Part shown: positions 1 to 39,790 of the stretch, one piece after another
Numbering within the stretch: position 1 is the first letter of the stretch
How the letters are laid out: the number at the start of each line of letters is the position of its first letter
Assembly (NCBI RefSeq): GCF_044704955.1
Contig: NC_091995.1
Location: 52,824,001 to 52,888,000 of the forward strand
Length of the DNA: 64,000 nt
From: Pristiophorus japonicus
Taxonomy: Eukaryota
Reading direction: 5' to 3'
Position numbers and translations under genes: made by a program
Notes under the pieces: model-generated
The model's input: only the letters and a program-made list of their open reading frames with translations
What the model was told of the DNA's origin: nothing
Database searches by the model: none

Positions 1-3000
1 TGGTGCTCTCCACTCTCTGTCCTGTGACAGTTGGAACTGGTGCTCTCCACTCTCTGTCCTGTGACAGTTTGAACTGGTGCTCTCCACTCTCTGTCCTGTG
101 ACAGTTGGAACTGCTGCTCTCCACTCTCTGTCCTGTGACAGTTGAAACTGATGCTCTCCACTCTCTGTCCTGTGACAGTTGGAACTGGTGCTCTCCACTC
201 TCTGTCCTGTGACAGTTGGAACTGGTGCTCTCCACTCTCTGTCCTGTGACAGTTTGAACTGGTGCTCTCCACTCTCTGTCCTGTGACAGTTGGAACTGGT
301 GCTCTCCACTCTCTGTCCTGTGATAGTTTGAACTGGTGCTCTCCACTCTCCCGTCCTGTGACAGTTGGAACTGGTGCTCTCCATGCTCTGTCCTGTGACA
401 GTTTGAACTGGTGCTCTCCACTCTCTCTCCTGTGACAGTTTGAACTGGTGCTCTCCACTCTCTGTCCTGTGACAGTTTGAACTGGTGCTCTCCACTCTCT
501 GTCCTGTGACAGTTTGAACTGGTGCTCTCCACTCTCTGTCTGTGACAGTTGGAACTGGTGCTCTCCACTCTCTGTCCTGTGACAGTTTGAACTGGTGCTC
601 TCCACTCTCTGTCCTGTGACAGTTGGAACTGGTGCTCTCCACTCTCTGTCCTGTGACAGTTTGAACTGGTGCTCTCCACTTTCTATCCTGTGACAGTTGG
701 AAATGGTGCTCTCCACTCTCTGTCCTGTGACAGTTTGAACTGGTGCTCTCCACTCTCTGTCCTGTGACAGTTGGAACTGGTGCTCTCCACGCTCTGTCCT
801 GTGACAGTTTGAACTGGTGCTGTCCACTCTCTGTCCTGTGACAGTTGGAACTGGTGCTCTCCACTCTCTGTCCTGTGACAGTTTGAACTGGTGCTCTCCA
901 CTCTCTGTCCTGTGACAGTTTGAACTGGTGCTCTCCACTCTCTGTCCTGTGACAGTTTGAACTGGTGCTCTCCACTCTCTGTCCTGTGACAGTTGGAACT
1001 GGTGCTCTCCACTCTCTGTCCTGTGACAGTTTGAACTGGTGCTCTCCACTCTCTGTCCTGTGACAGTTTGAACTGGTGCTCTCCACTCTCTGTCCTGTGA
1101 CAGTTTGAACTGGTGCTCTCCACTCTCCCGTCCTGTGACAGTTGGAACTGGTGCTCTCCACACTCTGTCCTGTGACAGTTTGAACTGGTGCTCTCCACTC
1201 TCTGTCCTGTGACAGTTTGAACTGGTGCTCTCCACTCTCTGTCCTGTGACAGTTGGAACTGGTGCTCTCCACTCTCTGTCCTGTGACAGTTTGAACTGGT
1301 GCTCTCCACTCTCTGTCCTGTGACAGTTTGAACTGGTGCTCTCCACTCTCTGTCCTGTGACAGTTTGAACTGGTGCTCTCCACTCTCTGTCCTGTGACAG
1401 TTGGAACTGGTGCTCTCCACTCTCTGTCCTGTGACAGTTGGAACTGGTGCTCTCCACTCTCTGTCCTGTGACAGTTTGAACTGGTGCTCTCCACTCTCTG
1501 TCCTGTGACAGTTTGAACTCGTGCTCTCCACTCTCTGTCCTGTGACAGTTGGAACTGGTGCTCTCCACTCTCTGTCCTGTGACAGTTTGAACTGGTGCTC
1601 TCCACTCTCTGTCCTGTGACAGTTTGAACTGGTGCTCTCCACTCTCTGTCCTGTGACAGTTGGAACTGGTGCTCTCCACTCTCTGTCCTGTGACAGTTGG
1701 AACTGGTGCTCTCCACTCTCTGTCCTGTGACAGTTGGAACTGGTGCTCTCCACTCTCTGTCCTGTGACAGTTTGAACTGATGCTCTCCACTCTCTGTCCT
1801 GTGACAGTTTGAACTGGTGCTCTCCACTCTCTGTCCTGTGACAGTTTGAACTGTTGCTCTCCACTCACTGTCCTGTTACAGTTTGAACTGGTGCTCTCCA
1901 CTCTCTGTCCTCTGACAGTTTGAACTGGTGCTCTCCACTCTCCCATCCTGTGACAGTTTGAACTGGTGCTCTCCACTCTCTGTCCTGTGACAGTTGGAAC
2001 TGGTGCTCTCCACTCACTGTCCTGTGACAGTTTGAACTGGTGCTCTCCACTCTCTGTCCTGTGACAGTTTGAACTGGTGCTGTCCACTCTCTGTCCTGTG
2101 ACAGTTTGAACTGGTGCTCTCCACTCTCTGTCCTGTGACAGTTGGAACTGGTGCTCTCCACTCTCTGTCCTGTGACAGTTTGAACTGGTGCTCTCCACTC
2201 TCTGTCCTGTGACAGTTGGAACTGGTGCTCTCCACTCTCTGTCCTGTGACAGTTTGAACTGGTGCTCTCCACTCTCTGTCCTGTGACAGTTTGAACTGGT
2301 GCTCTCCACTCTCTGTCCTGTGACAGTTGGAACTGGTGCTCTCCACTCTCTGTCCTGTGACAGTTTGAACTGGTGCTCTGCACTCTCTGTCCTGTGACAG
2401 TTTGAACTGGTGCTCTCCACTCTCTGTCCTGTGACAGTTGTAACTGGTGCTCTCCACTCTCTGTCCTGTGAGAGTTGGAACTGGTGCTCTCCACTCTCTG
2501 TCCTGTGACAGTTTGAACTGGTGCTCTCCACTCTCTGTCCTGTGACAGTTGGAACTGGTGCTCCCCACTCTCTGTCCTGTGACAGTGTGAACTGGTGCTC
2601 TCCACTCTCCCGTCCTGTGACAGTTGGAACTGGTGCTCTCCACTCACTGTCCTGTGACAGTTTGAACTGGTGCTCTCCACTCTCTGTCCTGTGACAGTTG
2701 GAACTGGTGCTCTCCACTCTCTGTCCTGTGACAGTTTGAACTGGTGCTCTCCACTCTCTGTCCTGTGACAGTTGGAACTGGTGCTCTCCACTCTCTGTCC
2801 TGTGACAGTTGAAACTGATGCTCTCCACTCTCTGTCCTGTGACAGTTGGAACTGGTGCTCTCCACTCTCTGTCCTGTGACAGTTGGAACTGGTGCTCTCC
2901 ACTCTCTGTCCTGTGACAGTTTGAACTGGTGCTCTCCACTCTCTGTCCTGTGACAGTTGGAACTGGTGCTCTCCACTCTCTGTCCTGTGATAGTTTGAAC

Positions 3001-6000
3001 TGGTGCTCTCCACTCTCCCGTCCTGTGACAGTTGGAACTGGTGCTCTCCATGCTCTGTCCTGTGACAGTTTGAACTGGTGCTCTCCACTCTCTCTCCTGT
3101 GACAGTTTGAACTGGTGCTCTCCACTCTCTGTCCTGTGACAGTTTGAACTGGTGCTCTCCACTCTCTGTCCTGTGACAGTTTTAACTGGTGCTCTCCACT
3201 CTCTGTCTGTGACAGTTGGAACTGGTGCTCTCCACTCTCTGTCCTGTGACAGTTTGAACTGGTGCTCTCCACTCTCTGTCCTGTGACAGTTGGAACTGGT
3301 GCTCTCCACTCTCTGTCCTGTGACAGTTTGAACTGGTGCTCTCCACTTTCTATCCTGTGACAGTTGGAACTGGTGCTCTCCACTCTCTGTCCTGTGATAG
3401 TTTGAACTGGTGCTCTCCACTCTCTGTCCTGTGACAGTTGGAACTGGTGCTCTCCACGCTCTGTCCTGTGACAGTTTGAACTGGTGCTGTCCACTCTCTG
3501 TCCTGTGACAGTTGGAACTGGTGCTCTCCACTCTCTGTCCTGTGACAGTTTGAACTGGTGCTCTCCACTCTCTGTCCTGTGACAGTTTGAACTGGTGCTC
3601 TCCACTCTCTGTCCTGTGACAGTTTGAACTGGTGCTCTCCACTCTCTGTCCTGTGACAGTTGGGACTGGTGCTCTCCACTCTCTGTCCTGTGACAGTTTG
3701 AACTGGTGCTCTCCACTCTCTGTCCTGTGACAGTTTGAACTGGTGCTCTCCACTCTCTGTCCTGTGACAGTTTGAACTGGTGCTCTCCACTCTCCCGTCC
3801 TGTGACAGTTGGAACTGGTGCTCTCCACACTCTGTCCTGTGACAGTTTGAACTGGTGCTCTCCACTCTCTGTCCTGTGACAGTTTGAACTGGTGCTCTCC
3901 ACTCTCTGTCCTGTGACAGTTGGAACTGGTGCTCTCCACTCTCTGTCCTGTGACAGTTTGAACTGGTGCTCTCCACTCTCTGTCCTGTGACAGTTTGAAC
4001 TGGTGCTCTCCACTCTCTGTCCTGTGACAGTTGGAACTGGTGCTCTCCACTCTCTGTCCTGTGACAGTTGGAACTGGTGCTCTCCACTCTCTGTCCTGTG
4101 ACAGTTTGAACTGGTGCTCTCCTCTCTCTCTCCTGTGACAGTTTGAACTGGTGCTCTCCACTCTCTCTCCTGTGACAGTTTGAACTGGTGCTCTCCACTC
4201 TCTGTCCTGTGACAGTTTGAACTGGTGCTCTCCACTCTCTGTCCTGTGACAGTTTGAACTGGTGCTCTCCACTCACTGTCCTGTGACAGTTTGAACTGGT
4301 GCTCTCCACTCTCTGTCCTCTGACAGTTTGAACTGGTGCTCTCCACTCTCCCATCCTGTGACAGTTTGAACTGGTGCTCTCCACTCTCTGTCCTGTGACA
4401 GTTGGAACTGGTGCTCTCCACTCACTGTCCTGTGACAGTTTGAACTGGTGCTCTCCACTCTCTGTCCTGTGACAGTTTGAACTGGTGCTGTCCACTCTCT
4501 GTCCTGTGACAGTTTGAACTGGTGCTCTCCACTCTCTGTCCTGTGACAGTTTGAACTGGTGCTCTCCACTCTCTGTCCTGTGACAGTTTGAACTGGTGCT
4601 CTCCATTCTCTGTCCTGTGACAGTTTGAACTGGTGCTCTCCACTCTCTGTCCTGTGACAGTTGGAACTGGTGCTCTCCACTCTCTGTCCTGTGACAGTTT
4701 GAACTGGTGCTCTCCACTCTCTGTCCTGTGACAGTTTGAACTGGTGCTCTCCACTCTCTGTCCTGTGACAGTTTGAACTGGTGCTCTCCACTCTCTGTCC
4801 TGTGACAGTTGGAACTGGTGCTCTCCACTCTCTGTCCTGTGAAAGTTTGAACTGGTGCTCTCCACTCTCTGTCCTGTGACAGTTTGAACTGGTGCTCTCC
4901 ACTCTCTGGCCTGTGACAGTTGGAACTGGTGCTCTCCACTCTCTGTCCTGTGAGAGTTGGAACTGGTGCTCTCCACTCTCTGTCCTGTGACAGTTTGAAC
5001 TGGTGCTCTCCACTCTCTGTCCTGTGACAGTTGGAACTGGTGCTCCCCAATCTCTGTCCTGTGACAGTGTGAACTGGTGCTCTCCACTCTCCCGTCCTGT
5101 GACAGTTGGAACTGGTGCTCTCCACTCACTGTCCTGTGACAGTTTGAACTGGTGCTCTCCACTCTCTGTCCTGTGACAGTTGGAACTGGTGCTCTCCACT
5201 CTCTGTCCTGTGACAGTTTGAACTGGTGCTCTCCACTCTCTGTCCTGTGACAGTTGGAACTGGTGCTCTCCACTCTCTGTCCTGTGACTGTTGAAACTGA
5301 TGCTCTCCACTCTCTGTCCTGTGACAGTTGGAACTGGTGCTCTCCACTCTCTGTCCTGTGACAGTTGGAACTGGTGCTCTCCACTCTCTGTCCTGTGACA
5401 GTTTGAACTGGTGCTCTCCACTCTCTGTCCTGTGACAGTTGGAACTGGTGCTCTCCACTCTCTGTCCTGTGATAGTTTGAACTGGTGCTCTCCACTCTCC
5501 CGTCCTGTGACAGTTGGAACTGGTGCTCTCCACGCTCTGTCCTGTGACAGTTTGAACTGGTGCTCTCCACTCTCTCTCCTGTGACAGTTTGAACTGGTGC
5601 TCTCCACTCTCTGTCCTGTGACAGTTTGAACTGGTGCTCTCCACTCTCTGTCCTGTGACAGTTTGAACTGGTGCTCTCCACTCTCTGTCCTGTGACAGTT
5701 GGAACTGGTGCTCTCCACTCTCTGTCCTGTGACAGTTTGAACTGGTGCTCTCCACTCTCTGTCCTGTGACAGTTGGAACTGGTGCTCTCCACTCTCTGTC
5801 CTGTGACAGTTTGAACTGGTGCTCTCCACTCTCTGTCCTGTGACAGTTGGAACTGGTGCTCTCCACTCTCTGTCCTGTGACAGTTTGAACTGGTGCTCTC
5901 CACTCTCTGTCCTGTGACAGTTGGAACTGGTGCTCTCCACGCTCTGTCCTGTGACAGTTTGAACTGGTGCTGTCCACTCTCTGTCCTGTGACAGTTGGAA

Positions 6001-9000
6001 CTGGTGCTCTCCACTCTCTGTCCTGTGACAGTTTGAACTGGTGCTCTCCACTCTCTGTCCTGTGACAGTTTGAACTGGTGCTCTCCACTCTCTGTCCTGT
6101 GACAGTTTGAACTGGTGCTCTCCACTCTCTGTCCTGTGACAGTTGGAACTGGTGCTCTCCACTCTCTGTCCTGTGACAGTTTGAACTGGTGCTCTCCACT
6201 CTCTGTCCTGTGACAGTTGGAACTGGTGCTCTCCACTCTCTGTCCTGTGACAGTTTGAACTGGTGCTCTCCACTCTCTGTCCTGTGACAGTTTGAACTGG
6301 TGCTCTCCACTCTCTGTCCTGTGACAGTTTGAACTGGTGCTCTCCATTCTCTGTCCTGTGACAGTTTGAACTGGTGCTCTCCACTCTCTGTCATGTGACA
6401 GTTTGAACTGGTGCTCTCCACTCTCTGTCCTGTGACAGTTGGAACTGGTGCTCTCCACTCTCTGTCCTGTGACAGTTTGAACTGGTGCTCTCCACTCTCT
6501 GTCCTGTGACAGTTTGAACTCGTGCTCTCCACTCTCTGTCCTGTGACAGTTGAAACTGATGCTCTCCACTCTCTGTCCTGTGACAGTTGGAACTGGTGCT
6601 CTCCACTCTCTGTCCTGTGACAGTTGGAACTGGTGCTCTCCACTCTCTGTCCTGCGACAGTTTGAACTAGTGCTCTCCACTCTCTGTCCTGTGACAGTTG
6701 GAACTGGTGCTCTCCATTCTCTGTCCTGTGACAGTTTGAACTGGTGCTCTCCACTCTCCCGTCCTGTGACAGTTGGAACTGGTGCTCTCCACTCTCTGTC
6801 CTGTGACAGTTTGAACTGGTGCTCTCCACTCTCCCGTCCTGTGACAGTTGGAACTGGTGCTCTCCACTCTCTGTCCTGTGACAGTTTGAACTGGTGCTCT
6901 CCACTCTCTGTCCTGTGACAGTTGGAACTGGTGCTCTCCACTCACTGTCCTGTGACAGTTTGAACTGGTGCTCTCCACTCTCTGTCCTGTGACAGTTTGA
7001 ACTGGTGCTCTCCACTCTCCCGTCCTGTGACAGTGGGAACTGGTGCTCACACTCTCTGTCCTGTGACAGTTGGAACTGGTGCTCTCCACTCTCTGTCCTG
7101 TGACAGTTTGAACTGGTGCTCTCCACTCTCTGTCCTGTGACAGTTTGAACTGGTGCTGTCCACTCTCTGTCCTGTGACAGTTTGAACTGGTGCTCTCCAC
7201 TCTCTGTCCTGTGACAGTTGGAACTGGTGCTCTCCACTCTCTGTCCTGTGACAGTTTGAACTGGTGCTCTCCACTCTCTGTCCTGTGACAGTTTGAACTG
7301 GTGCTCTCCACTCTCTGTCCTGTGACAGTTGGAACTGGTGCTCTCCACTCTCTGTCCTGTGACAGTTTGAACTGGTGCTCTCCACTCTCTGTCCTGTGAC
7401 AGTTGGAACTGGTGCTCTCCACTCTCTGTCCTGTGACAGTTTGAACTGGTGCTCTCCACTCTCTGTCCTGTGACAGTTGGAACTGGTGCTCTCCACTCTC
7501 TGTCCTGTGACAGTTGGAACTGGTGCTCTCCACTCTCTGTCCTGTGACAGTTGGAACTGGTGCTCTCCACTCTCTGTCCTGTGACAATTTGAACTGGTGC
7601 TCTCCACTCTCTGTCCTGTGACAGTTTGAACTGGTGCTCTCCACTCTCTGTCCTGTGACAGTTGGAACTGGTGCTCTCCACTCTCTGTCCTGTGACAGTT
7701 GGAACTGGTGCTCTCCATTCTCTGTCCTGTGACAGTTTGAACTGGTGCTCTCCACTCTCCTGTGACAGTTGGGACTGGTGCTCTCCACTCTCTGTCCTGT
7801 GACAGTTGGAACTGGTGCTCTGCACTCTCTGTCCTGTGACAGTTTGAACTGGTGCTCTCCACTCTCTGTCCTGTGACAGTTTGAACTGGTGCTCTCCACT
7901 CTCCCGTCCTGTGACAGTTGGAACTGGTGCTCTGCACTCTCTGTCCTGTGACAGTTTGAACTGGTGCTCTCCACTCTCTGTCCTGTGACAGTTTGAACTG
8001 GTGCTCTCCACTCTCTGTCCTGCGACAGTTTGAACTGGTGCTCTCCACTCTCTGTCCTGTGACAGTTGGAACTGGTGCTCTCCACTCTCTGTCCTGTGAC
8101 AGTTTGAACTGGTGCTCTCCACTCTCTGTCCTGTGACAGTTTGAACTGGTGCTCTCCACTCTCTGTCCTGTGACAGTTTGAACTGATGCTCTCCACTCTC
8201 TGTCCTGCGACAGTTTGAACTGGTGCTCTCCACTCTCTGTCCTGTGACAGTTGGAACTGGTGCTCTCCACTCTCTGTCCTGTGACAGTTGAAACTGATGC
8301 TCTCCACTCTCTGTCCTGTGACAGTTGGAACTGGTGCTCTCCACTCTCTGTCCTGTGACAGTTGGAACTGGTGCTCTCCACTCTCTGTCCTGTGACAGTT
8401 TGAACTGGTGCTCTCCACTCTCTGTCCTGTGACAGTTGGAACTGGTGCTCTCCACTCTCTGTCCTGTGATAGTTTGAACTGGTGCTCTCCACTCTCCCGT
8501 CCTGTGACAGTTGGAACTGGTGCTCTCCACTCTCTGTCCTGTGACAGTTTGAACTGGTGCTCTCCACTCTCTCTCCTGTGACAGTTTGAACTGGTGCTCT
8601 CCACTCTCTGTCCTGTGACAGTTTGAACTGGTGCTCTCCACGCTCTGTCCTGTGACAGTTTGAACTGGTGCTCTCCACTCTCTGTCCTGTGACAGTTGGA
8701 ACTGGTGCTCTCCACTCTCTGTCCTGTGACAGTTTGAACTGGTGCTCTCCACTCTCTGTCCTGTGACAGTTGGAACTGGTGCTCTCCACTCTCTGTCCTG
8801 TGACAGTTTGAACTGGTGCTCTCCACTCTCTGTCCTGTGACAGTTGGAACTGGTGCTCTCCACTCTCTGTCCTGTGACAGTTTGAACTGGTGCTCTCCAC
8901 TCTCTGTCCTGTGACAGTTGGAACTGGTGCTCTCCACGCTCTGTCCTGTGACAGTTTGAACTGGTGCTGTCCACTCTCTGTCCTGTGACAGTTGGAACTG

Positions 9001-12000
9001 GTGCTCTCCACTCTCTGTCCTGTGACAGTTTGAACTGGTGCTCTCCACTCTCTGTCCTGTGACAGTTTGAACTGGTGCTCTCCACTCTCTGTCCTGTGAC
9101 ACTTTGAACTGGTGCTCTCCACTCTCTGTCCTGTGACAGTTGGAACTGGTGCTCTCCACTCTCTGTCCTGTGACAGTTGGAACTGGTGCTCTCCACTCTC
9201 TGTCCTGTGACAGTTTGAACTGGTGCTCTCCACTCTCTGTCCTGTGACAGTTTGAACTGGTGCTCTCCACTCTCTGTCCTGTGACAGTTGGAACTGGTGC
9301 TCTCCACTCTCTGTCCTGTGACAGTTTGAACTGGTGCTCTCCACTCTCTGTCCTGTGACAGTTTGAACTGGTGCTCTCCACTCTCTGTCCTGTGACAGTT
9401 GGAACTGGTGCTCTCCACTCTCTGTCCTGTGACAGTTGGAACTGGTGCTCTCCACTCTCTGTCCTGTGACAGTTGGAACTGGTGCTCTCCACTCTCTGTC
9501 CTGTGACAGTTTGAACTGGTGCTCTCCACTCTCTGTCCTGTGACAGTTGAAACTGGTGCTCTCCACTCTCTGTCCTGTGACAGTTGAAACTGATGCTCTC
9601 CACTCTCTGTCCTGTGACAGTTGGAACTGGTGCTCTCCACTCTCTGTCCTGTGACAGTTGGAACTGGTGCTCTCCACTCTCTGTCCTGCGACAGTTTGAA
9701 CTAGTGCTCTCCACTCTCTGTCCTGTGACAGTTGGAACTGGTGCTCTCCATTCTCTGTCCTGTGACAGTTTGAACTGGTGCTCTCCACTCTCCCGTCCTG
9801 TGACAGTTGGAACTGGTGCTCTCCACGCTCTGTCCTGTGACAGTTTGAACTGGTGCTCTCCACTCTCCCGTCCTGTGACAGTTGGAACTGGTGCTCTGCA
9901 CTCTCTGTCCTGTGACAGTTTGAACTGGTGCTCTCCACTCTCTGTCCTGTGACAGTTTGAACTGGTGCTCTCCACTCTCTGTCCTGTGACAGTTGGAACT
10001 GGTGCTCTCCACTCACTGTCCTGTGACAGTTTGAACTGGTGCTCTCCACTCTCTGTCCTGTGACAGTTTGAACTGGTGCTCTCCACTCTCCCGTCCTGTG
10101 ACAGTGGGAACTGGTGTTCACACTCTCTGTCCTGTGACAGTTTGAACTGGTGCTCTCCACTCTCTGTCCTGTGACAGTTTGAACTGGTGCTCTCCACTCT
10201 CTGTCCTGTGACAGTTTGAACTGGTGCTCTCCACTCTCCCGTCCGGTGACAGTTGGAACTGGTGCTCTCCACTCTCTGTCCTGTGACAGTTTGAACTGGT
10301 GCTCTCCACTCTCTGTCCTGTGACAGTTGGAACTGGTGCTCTCCACTCTCTGTCCTGTGACAGTTTGAACTGGTGCTCTCCACTCTCTGTCCTGTGACAG
10401 TTTGAACTGGTGCTCTCCACTCTCTGTCCTGTGACAGTTGGAACTGGTGCTCTCCACTCTCTGTCCTGTGAAAGTTTGAACTGGTGCTCTCCACTCTCTG
10501 TCCTGTGACAGTTGGAACTGGTGCTCTCCACTCTCTGTCCTGTGACAGTTTGAACTGGTGCTCTCCACTCTCTGTCCTGTGACAGTTTGAACTGGTGCTC
10601 TCCACTCTCCCGTCCTGTGACAGTTGGAACTGGTGCTCTGCACTCTCTGTCCTGTGACAGTTTGAACTGGTGCTCTCCACTCTCTGTCCTGTGACAGTTT
10701 GAACTGGTGCTCTCCACTCTCTGTCCTGCGACAGTTTGAACTGGTGCTCTCCACTCTCTGTCCTGTGACAGTTGGAACTGGTGCTCTCCACTCTCTGTCC
10801 TGTGACAGTGGGAACTGGTGCTCTCCACCCACTGTCCTGTGACAGTTGGAACTGGTGCTCTCCACTCTCTGTCCTGTGACAGTTTGAACTGGTGCTCTCC
10901 ACTCTCTGTCCTGTGACAGTTGGAACTGGTGCTCTCCACTCTCTGTCCTGTGACAGTTTGAACTGGTGCTCTCCACTCTCTGTCCTGTGACAGTTTGAAC
11001 TGGTGCTCTCCACTCTCTGTCCTGTGACAGTTGGAACTGGTGCTCTCCACTCTCTGTCCTGTGACAGTTTGAACTGGTGCTCTCCACTCTCTGTCCTGTG
11101 ACAGTTGGAACTGGTACTCTCCACTCTCTGTCCTGTGACAGTTGGAACTGGTGCTCTCCACTCTCTGTCCTGTGACAGTTGGAACTGGTGCTCTCCACTC
11201 TCTGTCCTGTGACAGTTTGAACTGGTGCTCTCCACTCTCTGTCCTGTGACAGTTGAAACTGGTGCTCTCCACTCTCTGTCCTGTGACAGTTGAAACTGAT
11301 GCTCTCCACTCTCTGTCCTGTGACAGTTGGAACTGGTGCTCTCCACTCTCTGTCCTGTGACAGTTGGAACTGGTGCTCTCCACTCTCTGTCCTGCGACAG
11401 TTTGAACTAGTGCTCTCCACTCTCTGTCCTGTGACAGTTGGAACTGGTGCTCTCCATTCTCTGTCCTGTGACAGTTTGAACTGGTGCTCTCCACTCTCCC
11501 GTCCTGTGACAGTTGGAACTGGTGCTCTCCACGCTCTGTCCTGTGACAGTTTGAACTGGTGCTCTCCACTCTCCCGTCCTGTGACAGTTGGAACTGGTGC
11601 TCTCCACTCTCTGTCCTGTGACAGTTTGAACTGGTGCTCTCCACTCTCTGTCCTGTGACAGTTTGAACTGGTGCTCTCCACTCTCTGTCCTGTGACAGTT
11701 GGAACTGGTGCTCTCCACTCACTGTCCTGTGACAGTTTGAACTGGTGCTCTCCACTCTCTGTCCTGTGACAGTTTGAACTGGTGCTCTCCACTCTCCCGT
11801 CCTGTGACAGTGGGAACTGGTGCTCACACTCTCTGTCCTGTGACAGTTTGAACTGGTGCTCTCCACTCTCTGTCCTGTGACAGTTGGAACTGGTGCTCTC
11901 CACTCACTGTCCTGTGACAGTTTGAACTGGTGCTCTCCACTCTCTGTCCTGTGACAGTTTGAACTGGTGCTCTCCACTCTCCCGTCCGGTGACAGTTGGA

Positions 12001-14509
12001 ACTGGTGCTCTCCACTCTCTGTCCTGTGACAGTTTGAACTGGTGCTCTCCACTCTCTGTCCTGTGACAGTTGGAACTGGTGCTCTCCACTCTCTGTCCTG
12101 TGACAGTTTGAACTGGTGCTCTCCACTCTCTGTCCTGTGACAGTTTGAACTGGTGCTCTCCACTCTCTGTCCTGTGACAGTTGGAACTGGTGCTCTCCAC
12201 TCTCTGTCCTGTGAAAGTTTGAACTGGTGCTCTCCACTCTCTGTCCTGTGACAGTTGGAACTGGTGCTCTCCACTCTCTGTCCTGTGACAGTTTGAACTG
12301 GTGCTCTCCACTCTCTGTCCTGTGACAGTTGGAACTGGTGCTCTCCACTCTCTGTCCTGTGACAGTTTGAACTGGTGCTCTCCACTCTCTGTCCTGTGAC
12401 AGTTGGAACTGGTGCTCTCCACTCTCTGTCCTGTGACAATTTGAACTGGTGCTCTCCACTCTCTGTCCTGTGACAGTTTGAACTGGTGCTCTCCACTCTC
12501 TGTCCTGTGACAGTTGGAACTGGTGCTCTCCACTCTCTGTCCTGTGACAGTTGGAACTGGTGCTCTCCATTCTCTGTCCTGTGACAGTTTGAACTGGTGC
12601 TCTCCACTCTCCTGTGACAGTTTGAACTGGTGCTCTCCACTCTCTGTCCTGTGACAGTTGGAACTGGTGCTCTGCACTCTCTGTCCTGTGACAGTTTGAA
12701 CTGGTGCTCTCCACTCTCTGTCCTGTGACAGTTTGAACTGGTGCTCTCCACTCTCCCGTCCTGTGACAGTTGGAACTGGTGCTCTGCACTCTCTGTCCTG
12801 TGACAGTTTGAACTGGTGCTCTCCACTCTCTGTCCTGTGACAGTTTGAACTGGTGCTCTCCACTCTCTGTCCTGCGACAGTTTGAACTGGTGCTCTCCAC
12901 TCTCTGTCCTGTGACAGTTGGAACTGGTGCTCTCCACTCTCTGTCCTGTGACAGTGGGAACTGGTGCTCTCCACCCACTGTCCTGTGACAGTTGGAACTG
13001 GTGCTCTCCACTCTCTGTCCTGTGACAGTTTGAACTGGTGCTCTCCACTCTCTGTCCTGTGACAGTTTGAACTGGTGCTCTCCACACTCTGTCCTGTGAC
13101 AGTTTGAACTGGTGCTCTCCACTCTCTGTCCTGTGACAGTTTGAACTGGTGCTCTCCACTCTCCCGTCCTGTGACAGTTGGAACTGGTGCTCTCCACTCT
13201 CTGTCCTGTGACAGTTTGAACTGGTGCTCTCCACTCTCTGTCCTGTGACAGTTTGAACTGGTGCTCTCCACTCTCTGTCCTGTGACAGTTTGAACTGATG
13301 CTCTCCACTCTCTGTCCTGCGACAGTTTGAACTGGTGCTCTCCACTCTCTGTCCTGTGACAGTTTGAACTGGTGCTCTCCACTCTCTGTCCTGTGACAGT
13401 TGGAACTGGTGCTCTCCACTCTCTGTCCTGTGACAGTTTGAACTGGTGCTCTCCACTCTCTGTCCTGTGACAGTTGGAACTGGTGCTCTCCACTCTCTCT
13501 CCTGTGACAGTTTGAACTGGTGCTCTCCACTCTCTGTCCTGTGACAGTGTGAACTGGTGCTCTCCACTCTCTGTCCTGTGACAGTGTGAACTGGTGCTCT
13601 CCACTCTCCCGTCCTATGACAGTTGGAACTGGTGCTCTCCACTCTCTCTCCTGTGACAGTTTGAACTGGTGCTCTCCACTCTCCCGTCCTATGACAGTGT
13701 GAACTGGTGCTCTCCACTCTCCCGTCCTATGACAGTGTGAACTGGTGCTCTCCACTCTCTGTCCTGTGACAGTTGGAACTGGTGCTCTCCACTCTCTCTC
13801 CTGTGACAGTTTGAACTGGTGCTCTCCACTCTCTGTCCTGTGACAGTTTGAACTGGTGCTCTCCACTCTCCCGTCCTATGACAGTTGGAACTGGTGCTCT
13901 CCACTCTCTCTCCTGTGACAGTTTGAACTGGTGCTCTCCACTCTCCCGTCCTATGACAGTGTGAACTGGTGCTCTCCACTCTCCCGTCCTATGACAGTGT
14001 GAACTGGTGCTCTCCACTCTCTGTCCTGTGACAGTTGGAACTGGTGCTCTCCACTCTCCCGTCCTATGACAGTTTGAACTGGTGCTCTCAACTCTCTGTC
14101 CTGCGACAGTTTGAACTGGTGCTCTCCACTCTCTGACATGCGACAGTTTGAACTGGTGCTCTCCACTCTCTGTCCTGTGACAGTTGGAACTGGTGCTCTC
14201 CACTCTCTGTCCTGTGACAGTTGGAACTGGTGCTCTCCACTCTCTGTCCTGTGACAGTTGGAACTGGTGCTCTCCACTCTCTGTCCTGTGACAGTTTGAA
14301 CTGGTGCTCTCCACTCTCTGTCCTGTGACAGTTGGAACTGGTGCTCTCCACTCTCTGTCCTGTGACAGTTTGAACTGGTGCTCTCCACTCTCTGTCCTGT
14401 GACAGTTTGAACTGGTGCTCTCCACTCTCTGTCCTGTGACAGTTTGAACTGGTGCTCTCCACTCTCTGTCCTGTGACAGTTGGAACTGGTGCTCTCCACT
14501 CTCCCGTCC
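1..14509. repeat. 37-bp tandem satellite array (about 390 units, runs off the left edge)
   Basis: Unit TGGTGCTCTCCACTCTCTGTCCTGTGACAGTT(T/G)GAAC repeats continuously with few variants, including some 36- and 38-bp units. It explains all the repetitive 'ESTSSNCHRT' ORFs. Confidence 0.98.
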
Positions 14510-14552
14510 TTGGAAGATTTCACTTCGTTAAAGGCGCTATATAAATACAAGT
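14510..14552 (+). mobile_element. Retroposon 3' tail (L2/SINE-type) at the satellite boundary
   Basis: CGTTAAAGGCGCTATATAAATACAAG(TTG)n. The same AAAGGCGCTATATAAAT motif ends the SINE at about 31605-31625. Confidence 0.6.
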
Positions 14553-19917: not shown

Positions 19918-20031
19918 CTCTCCGTTGTTTTATCCAGATGACTATTCCGATAATCCCGAATGTAGCCAGTGCAACGATTAATCCAATGATAATATTAAGA
20001 TGGGAGCGTACACCAGTGTTTTCCGGTATTT
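19918..20031 (-). CDS. MHC class I heavy chain exon 5 (connecting peptide + transmembrane + basic stop-transfer)
   Basis: Acceptor tgtttcAG, donor G|gtaaga, phase 1, 114 nt: EIPENTGVRSHLNIIIGLIVALATFGIIGIVIWIKQRR. Confidence 0.85.
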
Positions 20032-26168: not shown

Positions 26169-26447
26169 CCCACCGATAGACCTTTGCCTCTGCCAGGCTG
26201 CTGTGTTCAATTTGACAGGAGTATTGATCCTCATCCCCAGCATGTACTTCAATCTCTTTCTTGATCTGATGGGTCCCATTGTGGTTCGGTCGAACCCCTG
26301 AGGAGTGGCTCTCAGACACTAGCTCTCCATTCCTGAGCCAGATCACCTCGATGGCAATTGGGTAAAATCCAGTAACCAGGCAGGAGAGTGTGGGCAGTTT
26401 GTCCTGATGATTGGGGTCACTTCTGGAGATGAACACTTCAGGCTGAA
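26169..26447 (-). CDS. MHC class I heavy chain exon 4 (alpha3, IgSF C1 domain)
   Basis: 279 nt, ctttcAG / G|gtaagg, phase 1. VQPEVFIS..TLSCLVTGFYPIAIEVIWLRNG..GVRPNHNGTHQI..YSCQIEHSSL..RW has both C1 cysteines and the core Trp. Confidence 0.95.
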
Positions 26448-26553: not shown

Positions 26554-26829
26554 CTTTCCTTGCAAAGTATTCCTTTCCAGCTCGCAAATATAAATGTAAA
26601 AACTGAACAAATCCTTCTTCCAGATGTGTTTTCCAATACTTGTTCCAGGATTCATCAGAATTCCATTTCTCCTTAGTCTTCACTGCATTATGATTGGTTG
26701 CGATCCATTTCATTCTGTCTGGTTCTAAACTAAGATAGTCCTTTCCATTATATCCAACATTCATCGATTTCTTAATGGAGCCGTCTTCTGTTATTTCAAC
26801 AGTTGAAATCCATTGAAAAATGTGAATTC
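26554..26829 (-). CDS. MHC class I heavy chain exon 3 (alpha2 domain, cysteine-less)
   Basis: 276 nt, tgacAG / G|gtattt, phase 1. GIHIFQW..GYNGKDYLSL..KWIA..KTKEKW..LEEGFVQFLHLYLRAGKE aligns to class I alpha2. A 106-bp intron separates it from alpha3. Confidence 0.92.
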
Positions 26830-32314: not shown

Positions 32315-32575
32315 CGGATGTCTGGTTTGTCCCCTTCATTATCATATTCAGATTCTCCTTTGCCATGGCTGACCGTGTGTTCCCGAGATCTGTGAGAGAA
32401 TCCCAGTATTGCTCACTGAGATAGTCTGCCATGAACTGCTGCCTGGGAATTGCCCGGCGGATATCAGTGTCATGATAATTAAGTTGAACTCCCTTCACCA
32501 TCGCAACATTAATAACCTCGGGCAAGTCGCTAATGCCGGAGATTGCTGTGTACATCACAGTAAGTGATTTCGTGT
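32315..32575 (-). CDS. MHC class I heavy chain exon 2 (alpha1 domain)
   Basis: 261 nt, ttttacAG / G|gtaaga, phase 1. DTKSLTVMYTAISGISDLPEVINVAMVKGVQLNYHDTDIRRAIPRQQFM..QYWD..NQTS includes the conserved N86 sequon. Confidence 0.9.
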
Positions 32576-35314: not shown

Positions 35315-38300
35315 TGGGAGGGAGAACAGCCAGTTGTCGTGGTGCACATTGGTACCAACGACATAGGTAAAAAAAGGGATGAGGTCCTACGAAACGAATT
35401 TCAGGAGCTAGGAGCTAAATTAAAAAGTAGGACCTCAAAAGTAGTAATCTCGGGATTGCTACCAGTGCCACGTGATAGTCAGAGTAGGAATCGCAGGATA
35501 GCGCAGATGAATACGTGGCTTGAGCAGTGGTGCAGCAGGGAGGGATTCAAATTCCTGGGGCATTGGGACCGGTTCTGGGGGAGGTGGGACCAGTACAAAC
35601 CGGACGGTCTGCACCTGGGCAGGACCGGAACCAATGTCCTAGGGGGAGTGTTTGCTAGTGCTGTTGGGGAGGATTTAAACTAATATGGCAGGGGGATGGG
35701 AACCAATGCAGGGAGACAGAGGGAAACAAAAAGGAGACAAAAGCAAAAGACAGAAAGGAGATGAGGAAAAGTGGAGGGCAGAGAAACCCAAGGCAAAGAA
35801 CAAAAAGGGCCACTGTACAGCAAAATTCTAAAAGGACAAAGGGTGTTAATAAAACAAGCCTGAAGGCTTTGTGTCTTAATGCAAGGAGTATCCGCAATAA
35901 GGTGGATGAATTAATTGTGCAAATAGATGTTAACAAATATGATGTGATTGGGATTACAGAGACGTGGCTCCAGGATGATCAGGGCTGGGAACTCAACATT
36001 CAGGGGTATTCAACATTCAGGAAGGATAGAATAAAAGGAAAAGGAGGTGGGGTAGCATTGCTGGTTAAAGAGGAGATTAATGCAATAGTTAGGAAAGACA
36101 TTAGCTTGGATGATGTGGAATCGATATGGGTAGAGCTGCAGAACACCAAAGGGCAAAAAACGTTAGTAGGAGTTGTGTACAGACCTCCAAACAGTAATAG
36201 GGATGTTGGGGAGGGCATCAAACAGGAAATTAGGGGTGCATGCAATAAAGGTGTAGCAGTTATAATGGGTGACTTTAATATGCACATAGATTGGGCTCGC
36301 CAAACTGGAAGCAATACGGTGGAGGAGGATTTCCTGGAGTGCATAAGGGATGGTTTTCTAGACCAATATGTTGAGGAACCAACTAGGGGGGAGGCCATCT
36401 TAGACTGGGTGTTGTGTAATGAGAGAGGATTAATTAGCAATCTCATTGTGCGAGGCCCCTTGGGGAAGAGTGACCATAATATGGTGGAATTCTGCATTAG
36501 GATGGAGAATGAAACAGTAATTTCAGAGACCATGGTCCAGAACTTAAAGAAGGGTAACTTTGAAGGTATGAGGCGTGAATTGGCTAGGATAGATTGGCGA
36601 ATGATACTTAGGGGGTTGACTGTGGATGGGCAATGGCAGACATTTAGAGACCGCATGGATGAATTACAACAATTGTACATTCCTGTCTGGCGTAAAAATA
36701 AAAAAGGGAAGGTGGCTCAACCGTGGCTATCTAGGGAAATCAGGGCTAGTATTAAAGCCAAGGAAGTGGCATACAAATTGGCCAGAAATAGCAGCGAACC
36801 TGGGGACTGGGAGAAATTTAGAACTCAGCAGAGGAGGACAAAGGGTTTGATTAGGGCAGGGAAAATGGAGTACGAGAAGAAGCTTGCAGGGAACATTAAG
36901 GCGGATTGCAAAAGTTTCTATAGGTATGTAAAGAGAAAAAGGTTGGTGAAGACAAACGTAGGTCCCCTGCAGTCAGAATCAGGGGAAGTCATAACGGGGA
37001 ACAAAGAAATGGCAGACCAATTGAACAAGTACTTTGGTTCGGTATTCACTAAGGAGGATACAAACAACCTTCCGGATATAAAAGGGGTCAGAGGGTCTAG
37101 TAAGGAGGGGGAACTGAGGGAAATCTTTATTAGTCGGGAAATTGTGTTGGGGAAATTGATGGGATTGAAGGCCGATAAATCCCCAGGGCCTGATGGACTG
37201 CATCCTAGAGTACTTAAGGAGGTGGCCTTGGAAATAGCGGATGCATTGACAGTCATTTTCCAACATTCCATTGACTCTGGATCAGTTCCTATGGAGTGGA
37301 GGGTAGCCAATGTAACCCCACTTTTTAAAAAAGGAGGGAGAGAGAAAACAGGGAATTATAGACCGGTCAGCCTGACCTCAGTAGTGGGTAAAATGATGGA
37401 ATCAATTATTAAGGATGTCATAGCAGTGCATCTGGAAAATGGTGACATGATAGGTCCAAGTCAGCATGGATTTGTGAAAGGGAAATCATGCTTGACAAAT
37501 CTTCTGGAATTTTTTGAGGATGTTTCCAGTAAAGTGGACAAAGGAGAACCAGTTGATGTGGTATATTTGGACTTTCAGAAGGCTTTCGACAAGGTCCCAC
37601 ACAAGAGATTAATGTGCAAAGTTAAAGCACATGGGATTGGGGGTAGTGTGCTGACGTGGATTGAGAACTGGTTGTCAGACAGGAAGCAAAGAGTAGGAGT
37701 AAACGGGTACTTTTCAGAATGGCAGGCAGTGACTAGTGGAGTGCCGCAAGGTTCTGTGCTGGGGCCCCAGCTGTTTACATTGTACATTAATGATTTAGAC
37801 GAGGGGATTAAATGCAGTATCTCCAAATTTGCGGATGATACTAAGTTGGGTGGCAGTGTGAGCTGCGAGGAGGATGCTATTAGGCTGCAGAGTGACTTGG
37901 ATAGGTTAGGTGAGTGGGCAAATGCATGGCAGATGAAGTATAATGTGGATAAATGTGAGGTTATCCACTTTGGTGGTAAAAACAGAGAGACAGACTATTA
38001 TCTGAATGGTGACAGATTAGGAAAAGGGAAGGTGCAACGAGACCTGGGTGTCATGGTACATCAGTCATTGAAGGTTAGCATGCAGGTACAGCAGGCGGTT
38101 AAGAAAGCAAATGGCATGTTGGCCTTCATAGCGAGGGGATTTGAATACAGGGGCAGGGAGGTGTTGCTACAGTTGTACAGGGCCTTGGTGAGGCCACACC
38201 TGGAGTATTGTGTAGAGTTTTGGTCTCCTAACTTGAGGAGGGACATTCTTGCTATTGAGGGAGTGCAGCGAAGGTTCACCAGACTGATTCCCGGGATGGC

Positions 38301-38766
38301 GGGACTGACCTATCAAGAAAGATTGGATCAACTGGGCTTGTATTCACTGGAGTTCAGAAGAATGAGAGGGGACCTCATAGAAACGTTTAAAATTCTGACG
38401 GGTTTAGACAGGTTAGATGCAGAAAGAATGTTCCCAATGTTGGGGAAGTCCAGAACCAGGGGTCACAGTCTGAGGATAAGGGGGAAGCCATTTAGGACCG
38501 AGATGAGGAGAAACTTCTTCACCCAGAGAGTGGTGAACCTGTGGAATTCTCTACCACAGAAAGTAGTTGAGGCCAATTCACTAAATATATTCAAAAGGGA
38601 GTTAGATGAAGTCCTTACTACTCGGGGGATCAAGGGTTATGGCGAGAAAGCAGGAAGGGGGTACTGAAGTTTCATGTTCAGCCATGAACTCATTGAATGG
38701 CGGTGCAGGCTAGAAGGGCTGAATGGCCTGCTCCTGCACCTATTTTCTATGTTTCTATGTTTCTAT
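35315..38766 (+). mobile_element. Young CR1 LINE in class I intron 1 (antisense to the gene): 3' half of ORF1, intact ORF2 and tail
   Basis: ORF1 SGNH-esterase-like part (VHIGTND, DGLH), uninterrupted ORF2, 3' UTR and (TTCTATGT)n tail. Confidence 0.96.
35761..38667 (+). CDS. CR1 ORF2: APE endonuclease + reverse transcriptase (968 aa, intact)
   Basis: EN motifs LNARS, ITETW, GDFN and SDH; RT motifs [10 protein letters not shown] and FADD; no stops. Confidence 0.95.
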   Translation: MRKSGGQRNPRQRTKRATVQQNSKRTKGVNKTSLKALCLNARSIRNKVDELIVQIDVNKYDVIGITETWLQDDQGWELNIQGYSTFRKDRIKGKGGGVALLVKEEINAIVRKDISLDDVESIWVELQNTKGQKTLVGVVYRPPNSNRDVGEGIKQEIRGACNKGVAVIMGDFNMHIDWARQTGSNTVEEDFLECIRDGFLDQYVEEPTRGEAILDWVLCNERGLISNLIVRGPLGKSDHNMVEFCIRMENETVISETMVQNLKKGNFEGMRRELARIDWRMILRGLTVDGQWQTFRDRMDELQQLYIPVWRKNKKGKVAQPWLSREIRASIKAKEVAYKLARNSSEPGDWEKFRTQQRRTKGLIRAGKMEYEKKLAGNIKADCKSFYRYVKRKRLVKTNVGPLQSESGEVITGNKEMADQLNKYFGSVFTKEDTNNLPDIKGVRGSSKEGELREIFISREIVLGKLMGLKADKSPGPDGLHPRVLKEVALEIADALTVIFQHSIDSGSVPMEWRVANVTPLFKKGGREKTGNYRPVSLTSVVGKMMESIIKDVIAVHLENGDMIGPSQHGFVKGKSCLTNLLEFFEDVSSKVDKGEPVDVVYLDFQKAFDKVPHKRLMCKVKAHGIGGSVLTWIENWLSDRKQRVGVNGYFSEWQAVTSGVPQGSVLGPQLFTLYINDLDEGIKCSISKFADDTKLGGSVSCEEDAIRLQSDLDRLGEWANAWQMKYNVDKCEVIHFGGKNRETDYYLNGDRLGKGKVQRDLGVMVHQSLKVSMQVQQAVKKANGMLAFIARGFEYRGREVLLQLYRALVRPHLEYCVEFWSPNLRRDILAIEGVQRRFTRLIPGMAGLTYQERLDQLGLYSLEFRRMRGDLIETFKILTGLDRLDAERMFPMLGKSRTRGHSLRIRGKPFRTEMRRNFFTQRVVNLWNSLPQKVVEANSLNIFKRELDEVLTTRGIKGYGEKAGRGY

Positions 38767-39074
38767 AACACTTTAGTCCAGGAATGGTGAAATTTTACCT
38801 GCTCCCAATCTGTGCGAACATTAAAATGACCCATTTTAACCACTTTCCATTTGCTACAAGCTTCTCTGCTCTCCGTGTTCCTGCATCCTGCTGTCAGGAG
38901 GCGTGTACACAACTCCCACCTCAGACTGACAGCCTGTGCTGGCTTCAGTGGTACAAAATATCAGGCAGTGTGTGTAACAGGCGGCTGATCAAATATCACC
39001 CGTTTCAAACTCTCGCTAAAAGTTCTGAATCACCCCCCAGAGAGTGAGAGTGGAGGGTTGAGTTCTTTACTTAC

Positions 39075-39126
39075 CGGGAGAGACCCAGGGAAAGCACAGG
39101 GATGTGGAGAGAAGGATCAGCAACAT
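39075..39126 (-). CDS. MHC class I heavy chain exon 1 (signal peptide)
   Basis: ATG..MLLILLSTSLCFPWVSP then G|gtaagt (phase 1). It joins exon 2 in frame (G+AC = Asp) and lies directly downstream of the TATA and SXY elements. Confidence 0.82.
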
Positions 39127-39197
39127 TCTGGGAATCCACTGCCCCTATTCCAATCGGTGACTGGGAATAAAACTCTCCGAGTGGGACACATCGACTG

Positions 39198-39401
39198 TTT
39201 ATAGACTGAAAAATACCCCAAATACACAACAGGTCTATTGGGGCCCCACTTTACTGTTTATCTTGAACTTTGATCATTTCCTTGATCTGAAAATGCAGAG
39301 CCAGAGGGTGAATGATTGGTTACTCTGGGAACAATCTCCAATGAAAGCACTTGGCAGTCCCCTGTCACCAGTTACCAGGAAGCTCAAACTGAGACCGGTT
39401 G
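39198..39401 (-). promoter_or_regulatory. MHC class I promoter: S box, X1/X2, Y box, CCAAT boxes, TATA
   Basis: Minus strand: CAACCG (39396-39401), 16 bp, CCTGGTAACTGGTGACA (X1/X2, 39363-39379), ATTGG (39338-39342), CCAAT (39315-39319 and 39237-39241), TATAAA (39198-39203). Confidence 0.78.
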
Positions 39402-39636
39402 AGAGTCAGTCTGTGAAATAGACTGAACAAGCCTCATACACCAGCTCCAGTGTAAAGGGCAGATATACTGGGATCCTGGGCTGCCCCACACAGTCAACAC
39501 ATTGACACTGGGCCCCTCCCACTGGGAACCTGTAAACTGGTTCTGATCCGGACTGTAGTTATACCACAACATGTTACAGCTATACATCATCTTTAATGTA
39601 CTGTAAACCACAAGGGGCATCACAGAGCAACGCATC

Positions 39637-39790
39637 GGGAGTGAGGGGAGGGGTCAAACTACGAGGCAGTGAGTCATTCTAACGGGGAGTGAGGGGAGGG
39701 GGTCAAACTAATGGAGTGAGGAGAGGGGTCAAACTAACGGAGTGAGGGGAGGGGTCAAACTAACGGAGTGAGGGGAGGGGTCAAACTAAC
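39637..39790. repeat. 26-bp G-rich minisatellite, left part
   Basis: GGAGTGAGGGGAGGGGTCAAACTAA(T/C) units. Confidence 0.88.

What the first reader, a model, noticed from the sequence alone, without database searches (positions are those of the whole stretch)
39198..39401. Complete S-X-Y enhanceosome module with mammalian class I spacing
Seen on the minus strand: CAACCG, 16 bp, CCTGGTAACTGGTGACA, then ATTGG starting exactly 37 bp after the X-box start, followed by CCAAT boxes and TATAAA about 72 bp before the ATG. Established: RFX (X1), CREB/ATF (X2) and NF-Y (Y) bind the SXY module, with strict spacing, to recruit NLRC5 or CIITA. As I recall it, HLA-B has CAACCT-N16-CCAGGATACTCGTGACG with the same 37-bp X-to-Y distance; this needs verifying. 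Inference: this divergent gene kept classical-type transcriptional wiring, which argues for function, and the enhanceosome geometry would be conserved across jawed vertebrates.
Basis: partly seen in the sequence, partly recalled or inferred. Interest (0 to 1): 0.7.

Follow-up and report, generated by a model that had tools for sequence, protein, structure and literature searches.

The report
Shark MHC lineages share SXY promoter
The spaced control boxes that switch on mammalian MHC immune genes sit, with the same spacing, in front of this shark non-classical class I gene and of the genome's other MHC genes; this copy has lost the neighbouring interferon-response motif, and its promoter is nearly identical to that of a very distant class I lineage, likely through gene conversion.

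Summary
Observation confirmed. The module lies 253 bp above the leader of a sawshark non-classical class I gene, probably UEA. It is not chance. An X-Y pattern hits 14 of 42 times in 3.9 Mb of the MHC of a 5.9-Gb genome. The same geometry precedes classical UAA-type, UBA-like, B2M and class II genes and mouse H2-K. In another species' contigs the Y box keeps its place while the spacer has diverged. Corrections: (1) the 16/37 spacing is not class I-specific, only the S-box sequence is; (2) TATAAA is doubtful as a TATA box, since a spliced contig runs 70 nt past it; (3) the module says little about this copy's function, because a ~1-kb promoter-leader cassette is 94% identical to that of UDA (35% protein identity), likely by gene conversion; (4) this copy lost the adjacent ISRE that its three sister promoters keep. 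RFX/CREB/NF-Y/NLRC5 use is inferred, not tested. This scan had already noted SXY modules on other shark and ray DNA.

The parts
39415..39420 (-). ISRE remnant (TTTC half only); a 14-bp deletion relative to the three sister promoters lies between 39420 and 39419
39396..39401 (-). S box CAACCG (5 of 6 to CAACCT of the classical UAA-type promoters)
39363..39379 (-). X1/X2 box (predicted RFX and CREB/ATF sites)
39338..39342 (-). Y box ATTGG (predicted NF-Y site), X start + 37; same place in contigs of another organism
39315..39319 (-). second CCAAT (AACCAATCA); with the Y box it flanks a segment that is inverted in the UDA copy
39237..39241 (-). third CCAAT; likely inside the 5' UTR; changed in one other species
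39198..39203 (-). TATAAA, doubtful as a TATA box (spanned by a spliced contig)
39117..39191 (-). out-of-frame upstream ORF, 24 codons, stop overlapping the start of the leader
39075..39126 (-). exon 1 coding part, 17-aa leader, phase-1 donor
38794..39790 (-). promoter + exon 1 + start of intron 1, cassette 94% identical to the UDA copy (L004)
32315..32575 (-). alpha1 exon
26554..26829 (-). alpha2 exon, lacks both canonical cysteines (family-wide)
26169..26447 (-). alpha3 exon
19918..20031 (-). transmembrane exon
1..14510 (.). tandem-repeat array in the intron after the TM exon; it runs into a 200-N assembly gap about 2.9 kb before the window, where the tail exons are missing

Best explanation
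This is a class I-type S-X-Y promoter module in front of a shark non-classical MHC class I gene (likely UEA), which would bind RFX, CREB/ATF and NF-Y and likely recruit NLRC5, as at mammalian class I genes. Shown: the boxes, their spacing, the open exons 1-5, the same module at UAA-type, UBA-like, B2M and class II genes, and NLRC5-type CARD, RFX5 and RFXAP domains in the genome. Inferred: factor binding; NLRC5 rather than CIITA (from the S box); a start site near or above 39273 rather than below TATAAA. The promoter and leader are likely homogenised by gene conversion among three UEA-like genes and UDA. This copy alone lost the ISRE, so it would be less directly IRF-inducible than its sisters.
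For: Enrichment in the MHC. CAACCT-16-X-20-ATTGG at two UAA-type and one UBA-like proximal promoter, each above an identified leader; CAAACT-16-X-20-ATTGG at two B2M genes. Against the UAA-type promoter the boxes match better than the X-Y spacer: S 5/6, X 11/17, Y 5/5, X-Y spacer 7/20. S plus spacer matches H2-K at 12 of 22 positions and H2-Eb at 6 of 22 (hand count; p 0.003 and 0.48). Shark class II promoters lack the AACC core at the S position (CTCGCT, TTCAGA). In run X7, 2 contigs match 39355-39404 with 6-7 differences in 50, and their loose end puts ATTGG at 39342-39338 with only 3 of 12 adjoining spacer letters shared (hand count). Trans factors. Conversion: 94% over 1,014 nt including intron against 96/272 protein identity; sawshark L6/T8 in both the UDA and UEA-like leaders, F6/I8 in most other sharks.
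Against: No binding or reporter data. Only 1 of 8 runs laid covered S-X; it is one organism, its RNA/DNA nature is a guess and the paralog is unknown. The S box is a 6-mer found after looking, and CAACAG also sits at a class II-region site (55.917 Mb). In salmon cells and zebrafish, IFN-gamma induction appears to run through IRF1/STAT1 rather than the enhanceosome (PMC7573153). The Y-box flank here (CTCCAAT on the other strand) is a weaker NF-Y context than the second CCAAT (recalled consensus). No laid contig carried this copy's own variants throughout; the X24 contig carries sister-copy variants. A CIITA gene was not searched for. UDA and UEA leaders differ at 2 or more sites in runs X1 and X5 and in Heterodontus, so homogenisation is not complete everywhere.
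Confidence: 0.78

Rival explanations
1. The module is real but a passenger at this copy: it was inherited by recent duplication or conversion, while this copy is weakly expressed or decaying (ISRE lost, tail exons not seen).
For: 97-98% identity to sister copies over kilobases of intron; ISRE deletion in this copy only, 1 of 4; tail exons found for 2 sister genes but not in the window or the 100 kb fetched beyond it; the X24 contig carries sister variants.
Against: Exons 1-5 are open with canonical splice sites; the tail exons would fall at a 200-N gap; S, X and Y are unchanged in all 4 copies.
Confidence: 0.3
2. The module works, but through CIITA or through either co-activator; the NLRC5/CIITA split by S box is not yet present in sharks.
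For: X and Y boxes and spacing do not separate class I from class II here (X identity 13/17 to class II beta, 11/17 to UAA-type).
Against: The S position does separate them: AACC/AAAC core at class I and B2M, not at class II alpha or beta. In mouse the S region decides NLRC5 use.
Confidence: 0.15
3. The window copy is an uncollapsed second haplotype of the gene at 53.92 Mb, so the ISRE loss is an allele and not a paralog difference.
For: alpha1 100% and alpha2 99% identical to that gene; the copy ends at an assembly gap.
Against: alpha3 is only 92% identical, and that gene's alpha3 is closer to the third copy; introns differ by 2-3%; the neighbouring divergent copy occurs once.
Confidence: 0.12
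4. Chance motif match.
For: Short motifs; the genome patterns also gave 18-19 control hits.
Against: MHC enrichment, the position above a leader exon and the cross-species Y position.
Confidence: 0.02

Closest known systems
NLRC5-dependent SXY module of mammalian MHC class I, B2M and non-classical H2-Q/T/M3 (mouse H2-K; PMC4374748)
   Same: S-X 16, 17-nt X, X-Y 20, ATTGG; AACC core in S; an ISRE just upstream in the sister copies
   Different: Cartilaginous fish, untested; this copy lacks the ISRE; an extra CCAAT in inverted-repeat arrangement; S ends in G
CIITA-dependent W/S-X-Y module of MHC class II (mouse H2-Eb; PMC4374748, PMC4381081)
   Same: Same order and nearly the same spacing (16; 36 against 37)
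   Different: S sequence (GGACCT in H2-Eb); it precedes a class I heavy-chain gene here
Teleost classical UBA promoters (Atlantic salmon, trout; PMC1971071, PMC7573153)
   Same: ISRE, W/S, site alpha/X2 and enhancer B already described in fish
   Different: Those are classical genes; salmonid non-classical L-lineage promoters are described by ISRE/GAS elements (PMC11695323)
Shark non-classical class I lineage UEA (record labelled 'Gcirratum_UCA' in supplement file 10 of PMC10751288)
   Same: Near-identical alpha2/alpha3 motifs, no alpha2 cysteines, multicopy, next to UDA and UFA in the MHC
   Different: The name UEA is inferred: the supplement has no record so labelled and the defining paper is not held; the spiny dogfish UCA record is visibly more distant

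Membership tests
MHC SXY enhanceosome module | X1/X2 box followed by ATTGG at 20-22 nt | tested here: met
   20 nt; rule; H2-K 20
MHC SXY enhanceosome module | S box 16 nt upstream of X | tested here: met
   CAACCG at 16; CAACCT at 16 in UAA-type and UBA-like promoters
MHC SXY enhanceosome module | Lies upstream of the start site of an MHC-pathway gene, in sense orientation | tested here: met
   253 bp above the leader ATG; the longest spliced contig reaches 39273, below the Y box; the start site itself is not mapped
MHC SXY enhanceosome module | Boxes and spacing conserved, spacers free | tested here: met
   paralogs and one other organism (2 contigs of 1 run)
MHC SXY enhanceosome module | Binds RFX, CREB/ATF, NF-Y; activity depends on them | not testable with these tools
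   RFX5_N and RFXAP domains exist in the genome; no binding data
NLRC5-type (class I) SXY | Class I-type S box, distinct from class II | tested here: met
   12/22 to H2-K against 6/22 to H2-Eb; differs from shark class II; modest strength
NLRC5-type (class I) SXY | Spacing diagnostic of class I | tested here: not met
   shark class II beta 37, class II alpha 36, H2-Eb 36; spacing does not define the class
NLRC5-type (class I) SXY | Transactivated by NLRC5, not CIITA | not testable with these tools
   one atypical-CARD locus present
Classical class I proximal promoter | ISRE directly upstream of S | tested here: not met
   absent in this copy, present in 3 of 3 sister copies; ISRE-like TTTCACTTTC in UAA-type and UBA-like promoters
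Classical class I proximal promoter | TATA box 25-30 nt above the start site | tested here: inconclusive
   contigs spanning TATAAA in X11 and X24, part of it missing in X5; others end at 39166-39205; contigs cannot map starts
Shark UEA lineage | Sequence groups with the nurse shark record labelled UCA; alpha2 without cysteines; multicopy, linked to UDA | tested here: met
   comparison by eye; no tree built
Shark UEA lineage | Matches sequences named UEA in the defining paper | not testable with these tools
   paper not held; no UEA-labelled record in the supplement

The most novel reading that the evidence does not exclude
Two shark class I lineages that split before sharks and chimaeras did (UDA has a chimaera member) have kept one interchangeable promoter-plus-leader cassette by repeated gene conversion. 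Their expression would thus be locked together while their binding grooves diverge, and single-copy edits (ISRE deletion here, Y-box flank inversion in UDA) would tune it. With the class I/class II difference at the S box, this would put the NLRC5/CIITA division of labour at the root of jawed vertebrates.
Probability: 0.45. Interest if true: 0.65.

Novelty: new member of a known kind. Interest (0 to 1): 0.45.

Why it matters
It extends the MHC enhanceosome geometry, known from mammals and in outline from teleosts, to a shark, across class Ia, three class Ib lineages, B2M and class II. It yields a natural panel for testing whether the S box already separated NLRC5 from CIITA: this copy (no ISRE), its sisters (ISRE), UDA (inverted Y flank), UAA-type, class II, and a UGA-related group with a degenerate Y. 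The shared UDA/UEA cassette also warns that a tidy promoter is not evidence that a given copy is functional.

Tried and rejected
No RNA holder was listed on record for the exons; this is no evidence on expression. The first TM-exon scan missed the exon; it was found with P0002. The class II beta family search found nothing; the gene was identified from its beta2 exon and a leader instead, and beta1 was not located. Both genome patterns missed the UAA-type proximal promoters (against 79, 96), so no hit is not absence. No site scoring 15 or more was found in 17 of the 29 stretches scanned, including those above 6 UGA-like alpha1 exons and 40 kb above UFA; promoters may lie further off. One search was misaligned (L004 in the wrong orientation) and was replaced. 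A kB-like GGGGCAGCCC at 39487 and a GAS-like site at 39134 were judged too weak to claim. The MHC-ZSWIM fusion model P0034 was rejected as a likely cross-gap artefact. Almeida 2020, Almeida 2021 and Meissner 2012 are not held; the Almeida papers may already describe the shared leader.

Full report
Observation.

The gene. The ATG opens a 17-residue leader exon, followed by alpha1, alpha2, alpha3 and TM exons on the minus strand. The window is G000:C19:52.824-52.888 Mb of a 5.9-Gb genome. The nearest named proteins are labelled Pristiophorus japonicus, and P0034 is this copy's own model. The family lacks both alpha2 cysteines in the 10 members aligned. By eye it matches the nurse shark record labelled UCA in supplement file 10 of PMC10751288. 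Being multicopy and next to UDA, it is probably the lineage now called UEA (the naming link is recalled). The cytoplasmic exons were found for two sister genes but not for this one; its repeat array runs into a 200-N gap. P0034's fusion to a ZSWIM-type neighbour is therefore likely an annotation artefact.

Not chance. Two degenerate X-Y patterns gave 46 and 42 genome hits, against 19 and 18 for reversed controls. In one search, 14 of 42 fall in 3.9 Mb of the MHC, or 9 of 27 after collapsing duplicates (p 1e-22 for that span, chosen after the fact; 4e-10 for all of C19). Those I could assign lie above the three UEA-like genes, UDA, two B2M genes and class II beta; six other sites (seven hits) have no gene assigned. 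ISRE-like-CAACCT-16-X-20-ATTGG stands at two UAA-type genes and one UBA-like gene, and an X-Y of 36 at class II alpha. A good X with a degenerate Y (ACTGG) stands at five UGA-related genes. No site was found in 17 of the 29 stretches.

Comparison with mammals. The primers in PMC4374748 (counted by hand) give H2-K TAACCT-16-X-20-ATTGG (37) and H2-Eb GGACCT-16-X-19-ATTGG (36). The text gives 16 and 20-22, taken from class II. Spacing is thus common to both classes. The class I character lies in the S region: 12 of 22 matches to H2-K against 6 of 22 to H2-Eb, and no AACC core at shark class II alpha or beta. In Ludigs's swaps the S-side fragment decided NLRC5 use; that fragment also includes the H2-K ISRE. 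The recalled HLA-B sequence was not checked.

Other species. Eight coded runs were laid, all as contigs, with RNA status guessed. Only X7 covered S-X: two contigs with 6-7 differences in 50 letters. Their unaligned continuation places ATTGG exactly at 39342-39338 with 3 of 12 spacer letters shared. This is the best sign of selection on spacing, but it comes from one organism and an unknown paralog.

TATA box. In X11 a contig spliced to a UEA-type alpha1 runs to 39273, through an unchanged TATAAA, and ends in what I recall as Illumina adapter sequence. X24's contig reaches 39249. X5's deepest contig appears to lack 39187-39200 and continue about 50 nt further (hand alignment). Contigs of X7, X9, X17 and X20 end between 39166 and about 39205, which is uninformative. 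TATAAA is therefore inside at least some transcripts; the start site is not mapped. Such transcripts would carry the out-of-frame ATG at 39191.

Shared cassette. The promoter occurs four times at 93-100%. One copy (53.253 Mb, plus strand) is 12 kb above a UDA alpha1 exon. It matches this one at 94% over 1,014 nt, intron included, while alpha1-alpha3 proteins share 96 of 272 residues. Leaders of this type head UDA proteins in five named sharks, and in runs X1 and X5 they are spliced both to UDA-type and to UEA-type alpha1. Sawshark UDA and UEA-like leaders share L6 and T8. All other-species contigs covering 39111 read the F6 base, and those of X1, X5 and X7 the I8 base; L6 recurs in Hemiscyllium. 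Heptranchias has R14 in both lineages, though R14 recurs in other sharks. This pattern suggests gene conversion. It is incomplete in X1, X5 and Heterodontus, and no promoter tree could be built. It weakens the argument from promoter to function of this copy.

Copy-specific edits. Three sister promoters have GTTTC-N2-TTTC 13 nt above S; this copy has lost 14 bp with the first half. In the UDA copy the segment between ATTGG and the second CCAAT is inverted, which changes the Y flank while keeping X-Y at 37.

Mechanism. RFX on X1, CREB/ATF on X2 and NF-Y on Y would form a phased platform for NLRC5 (established for mammals). An atypical CARD, RFX5_N and RFXAP domains are in this genome. Binding and activity are untested, and salmon and zebrafish data favour IRF1/STAT1 for IFN-gamma induction, which makes the ISRE loss potentially more important than the module.

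Literature. Seen: passages of PMC10751288 (plus supplement parts 1, 97, 98 and a term search), PMC12562908, PMC7573153, PMC3837245, PMC4374748 (plus section 21 and the primer list), PMC4381081, PMC11695323 and PMC1971071. W/S-X2-Y elements are already described in teleost class I promoters. The listings of searches showed no title on shark MHC promoters or a UDA/UEA shared leader; I did not open most of those papers, and the two lineage papers are not held. This scan's earlier notes already report SXY modules in this genome and in other sharks and a ray; the sequence look-up for this promoter found none.

Verdict. The shared UDA/UEA cassette and the ISRE loss are the parts a specialist may not expect. 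Interest 0.45.

Noticed in passing
G000:C3:316.6-319.3 Mb: About 9 class I-like copies with alpha1-alpha3 adjacent in single long open frames (419-777 aa), off the MHC contig; they look like processed copies, whereas PMC10751288 reports no class Ib outside the elasmobranch MHC.
   Followed up: no
G000:C11:25.61-25.69 Mb (5), C17:111.0 Mb (2), C413 (1); L024-L028: A repeated, good S-X-Y (CAAACT-16-X-21-ATTGG in L024 and L025) outside the MHC; the gene behind it was not identified.
   Followed up: partly
G000:C19:55.87-55.93 Mb; L038, L040, L052, L058: Four X-Y modules on the minus strand downstream of class II beta with no gene found; they resemble distal inverted enhancers of class II loci (recalled).
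   Followed up: partly
L099, L110: UAA-type and UBA-like promoters carry a second X-Y module about 100 bp below the first.
   Followed up: no
L102, L104, L105, L112, L113: Five UGA-related genes have a near-perfect X box but ACTGG at the Y position and no class I S box.
   Followed up: no
G000:C19:54.867 and 55.006 Mb; L055, L056: Two near-identical B2M promoters and leader exons; exon 2 confirmed for the first.
   Followed up: partly
window 1-14510 and L080:6935-7134: The intronic repeat array ends at an assembly gap; protein model P0034 joins this gene's TM exon to a ZSWIM/MULE-type gene across it.
   Followed up: yes
G000:C19:52.92-53.01 Mb; L045, L046: The neighbouring UEA-like gene has alpha1/alpha2 only 55/63% identical but promoter 95%, alpha3 93% and an identical TM: flanks homogenised, groove exons old.
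   Followed up: partly
window 35659-38667 (+): A 1,002-codon open frame of LINE type (endonuclease and reverse-transcriptase motifs by eye) inside intron 1, antisense to the gene.
   Followed up: no
L101:4586-4990: A repeat made of X-box-like units with ATTGG at +37, antisense, upstream of a UGA-related alpha1 exon.
   Followed up: no
G000:C6:35351065 and C6:62074109: A class II alpha1-like and a class I alpha1-like match off the MHC contig.
   Followed up: no
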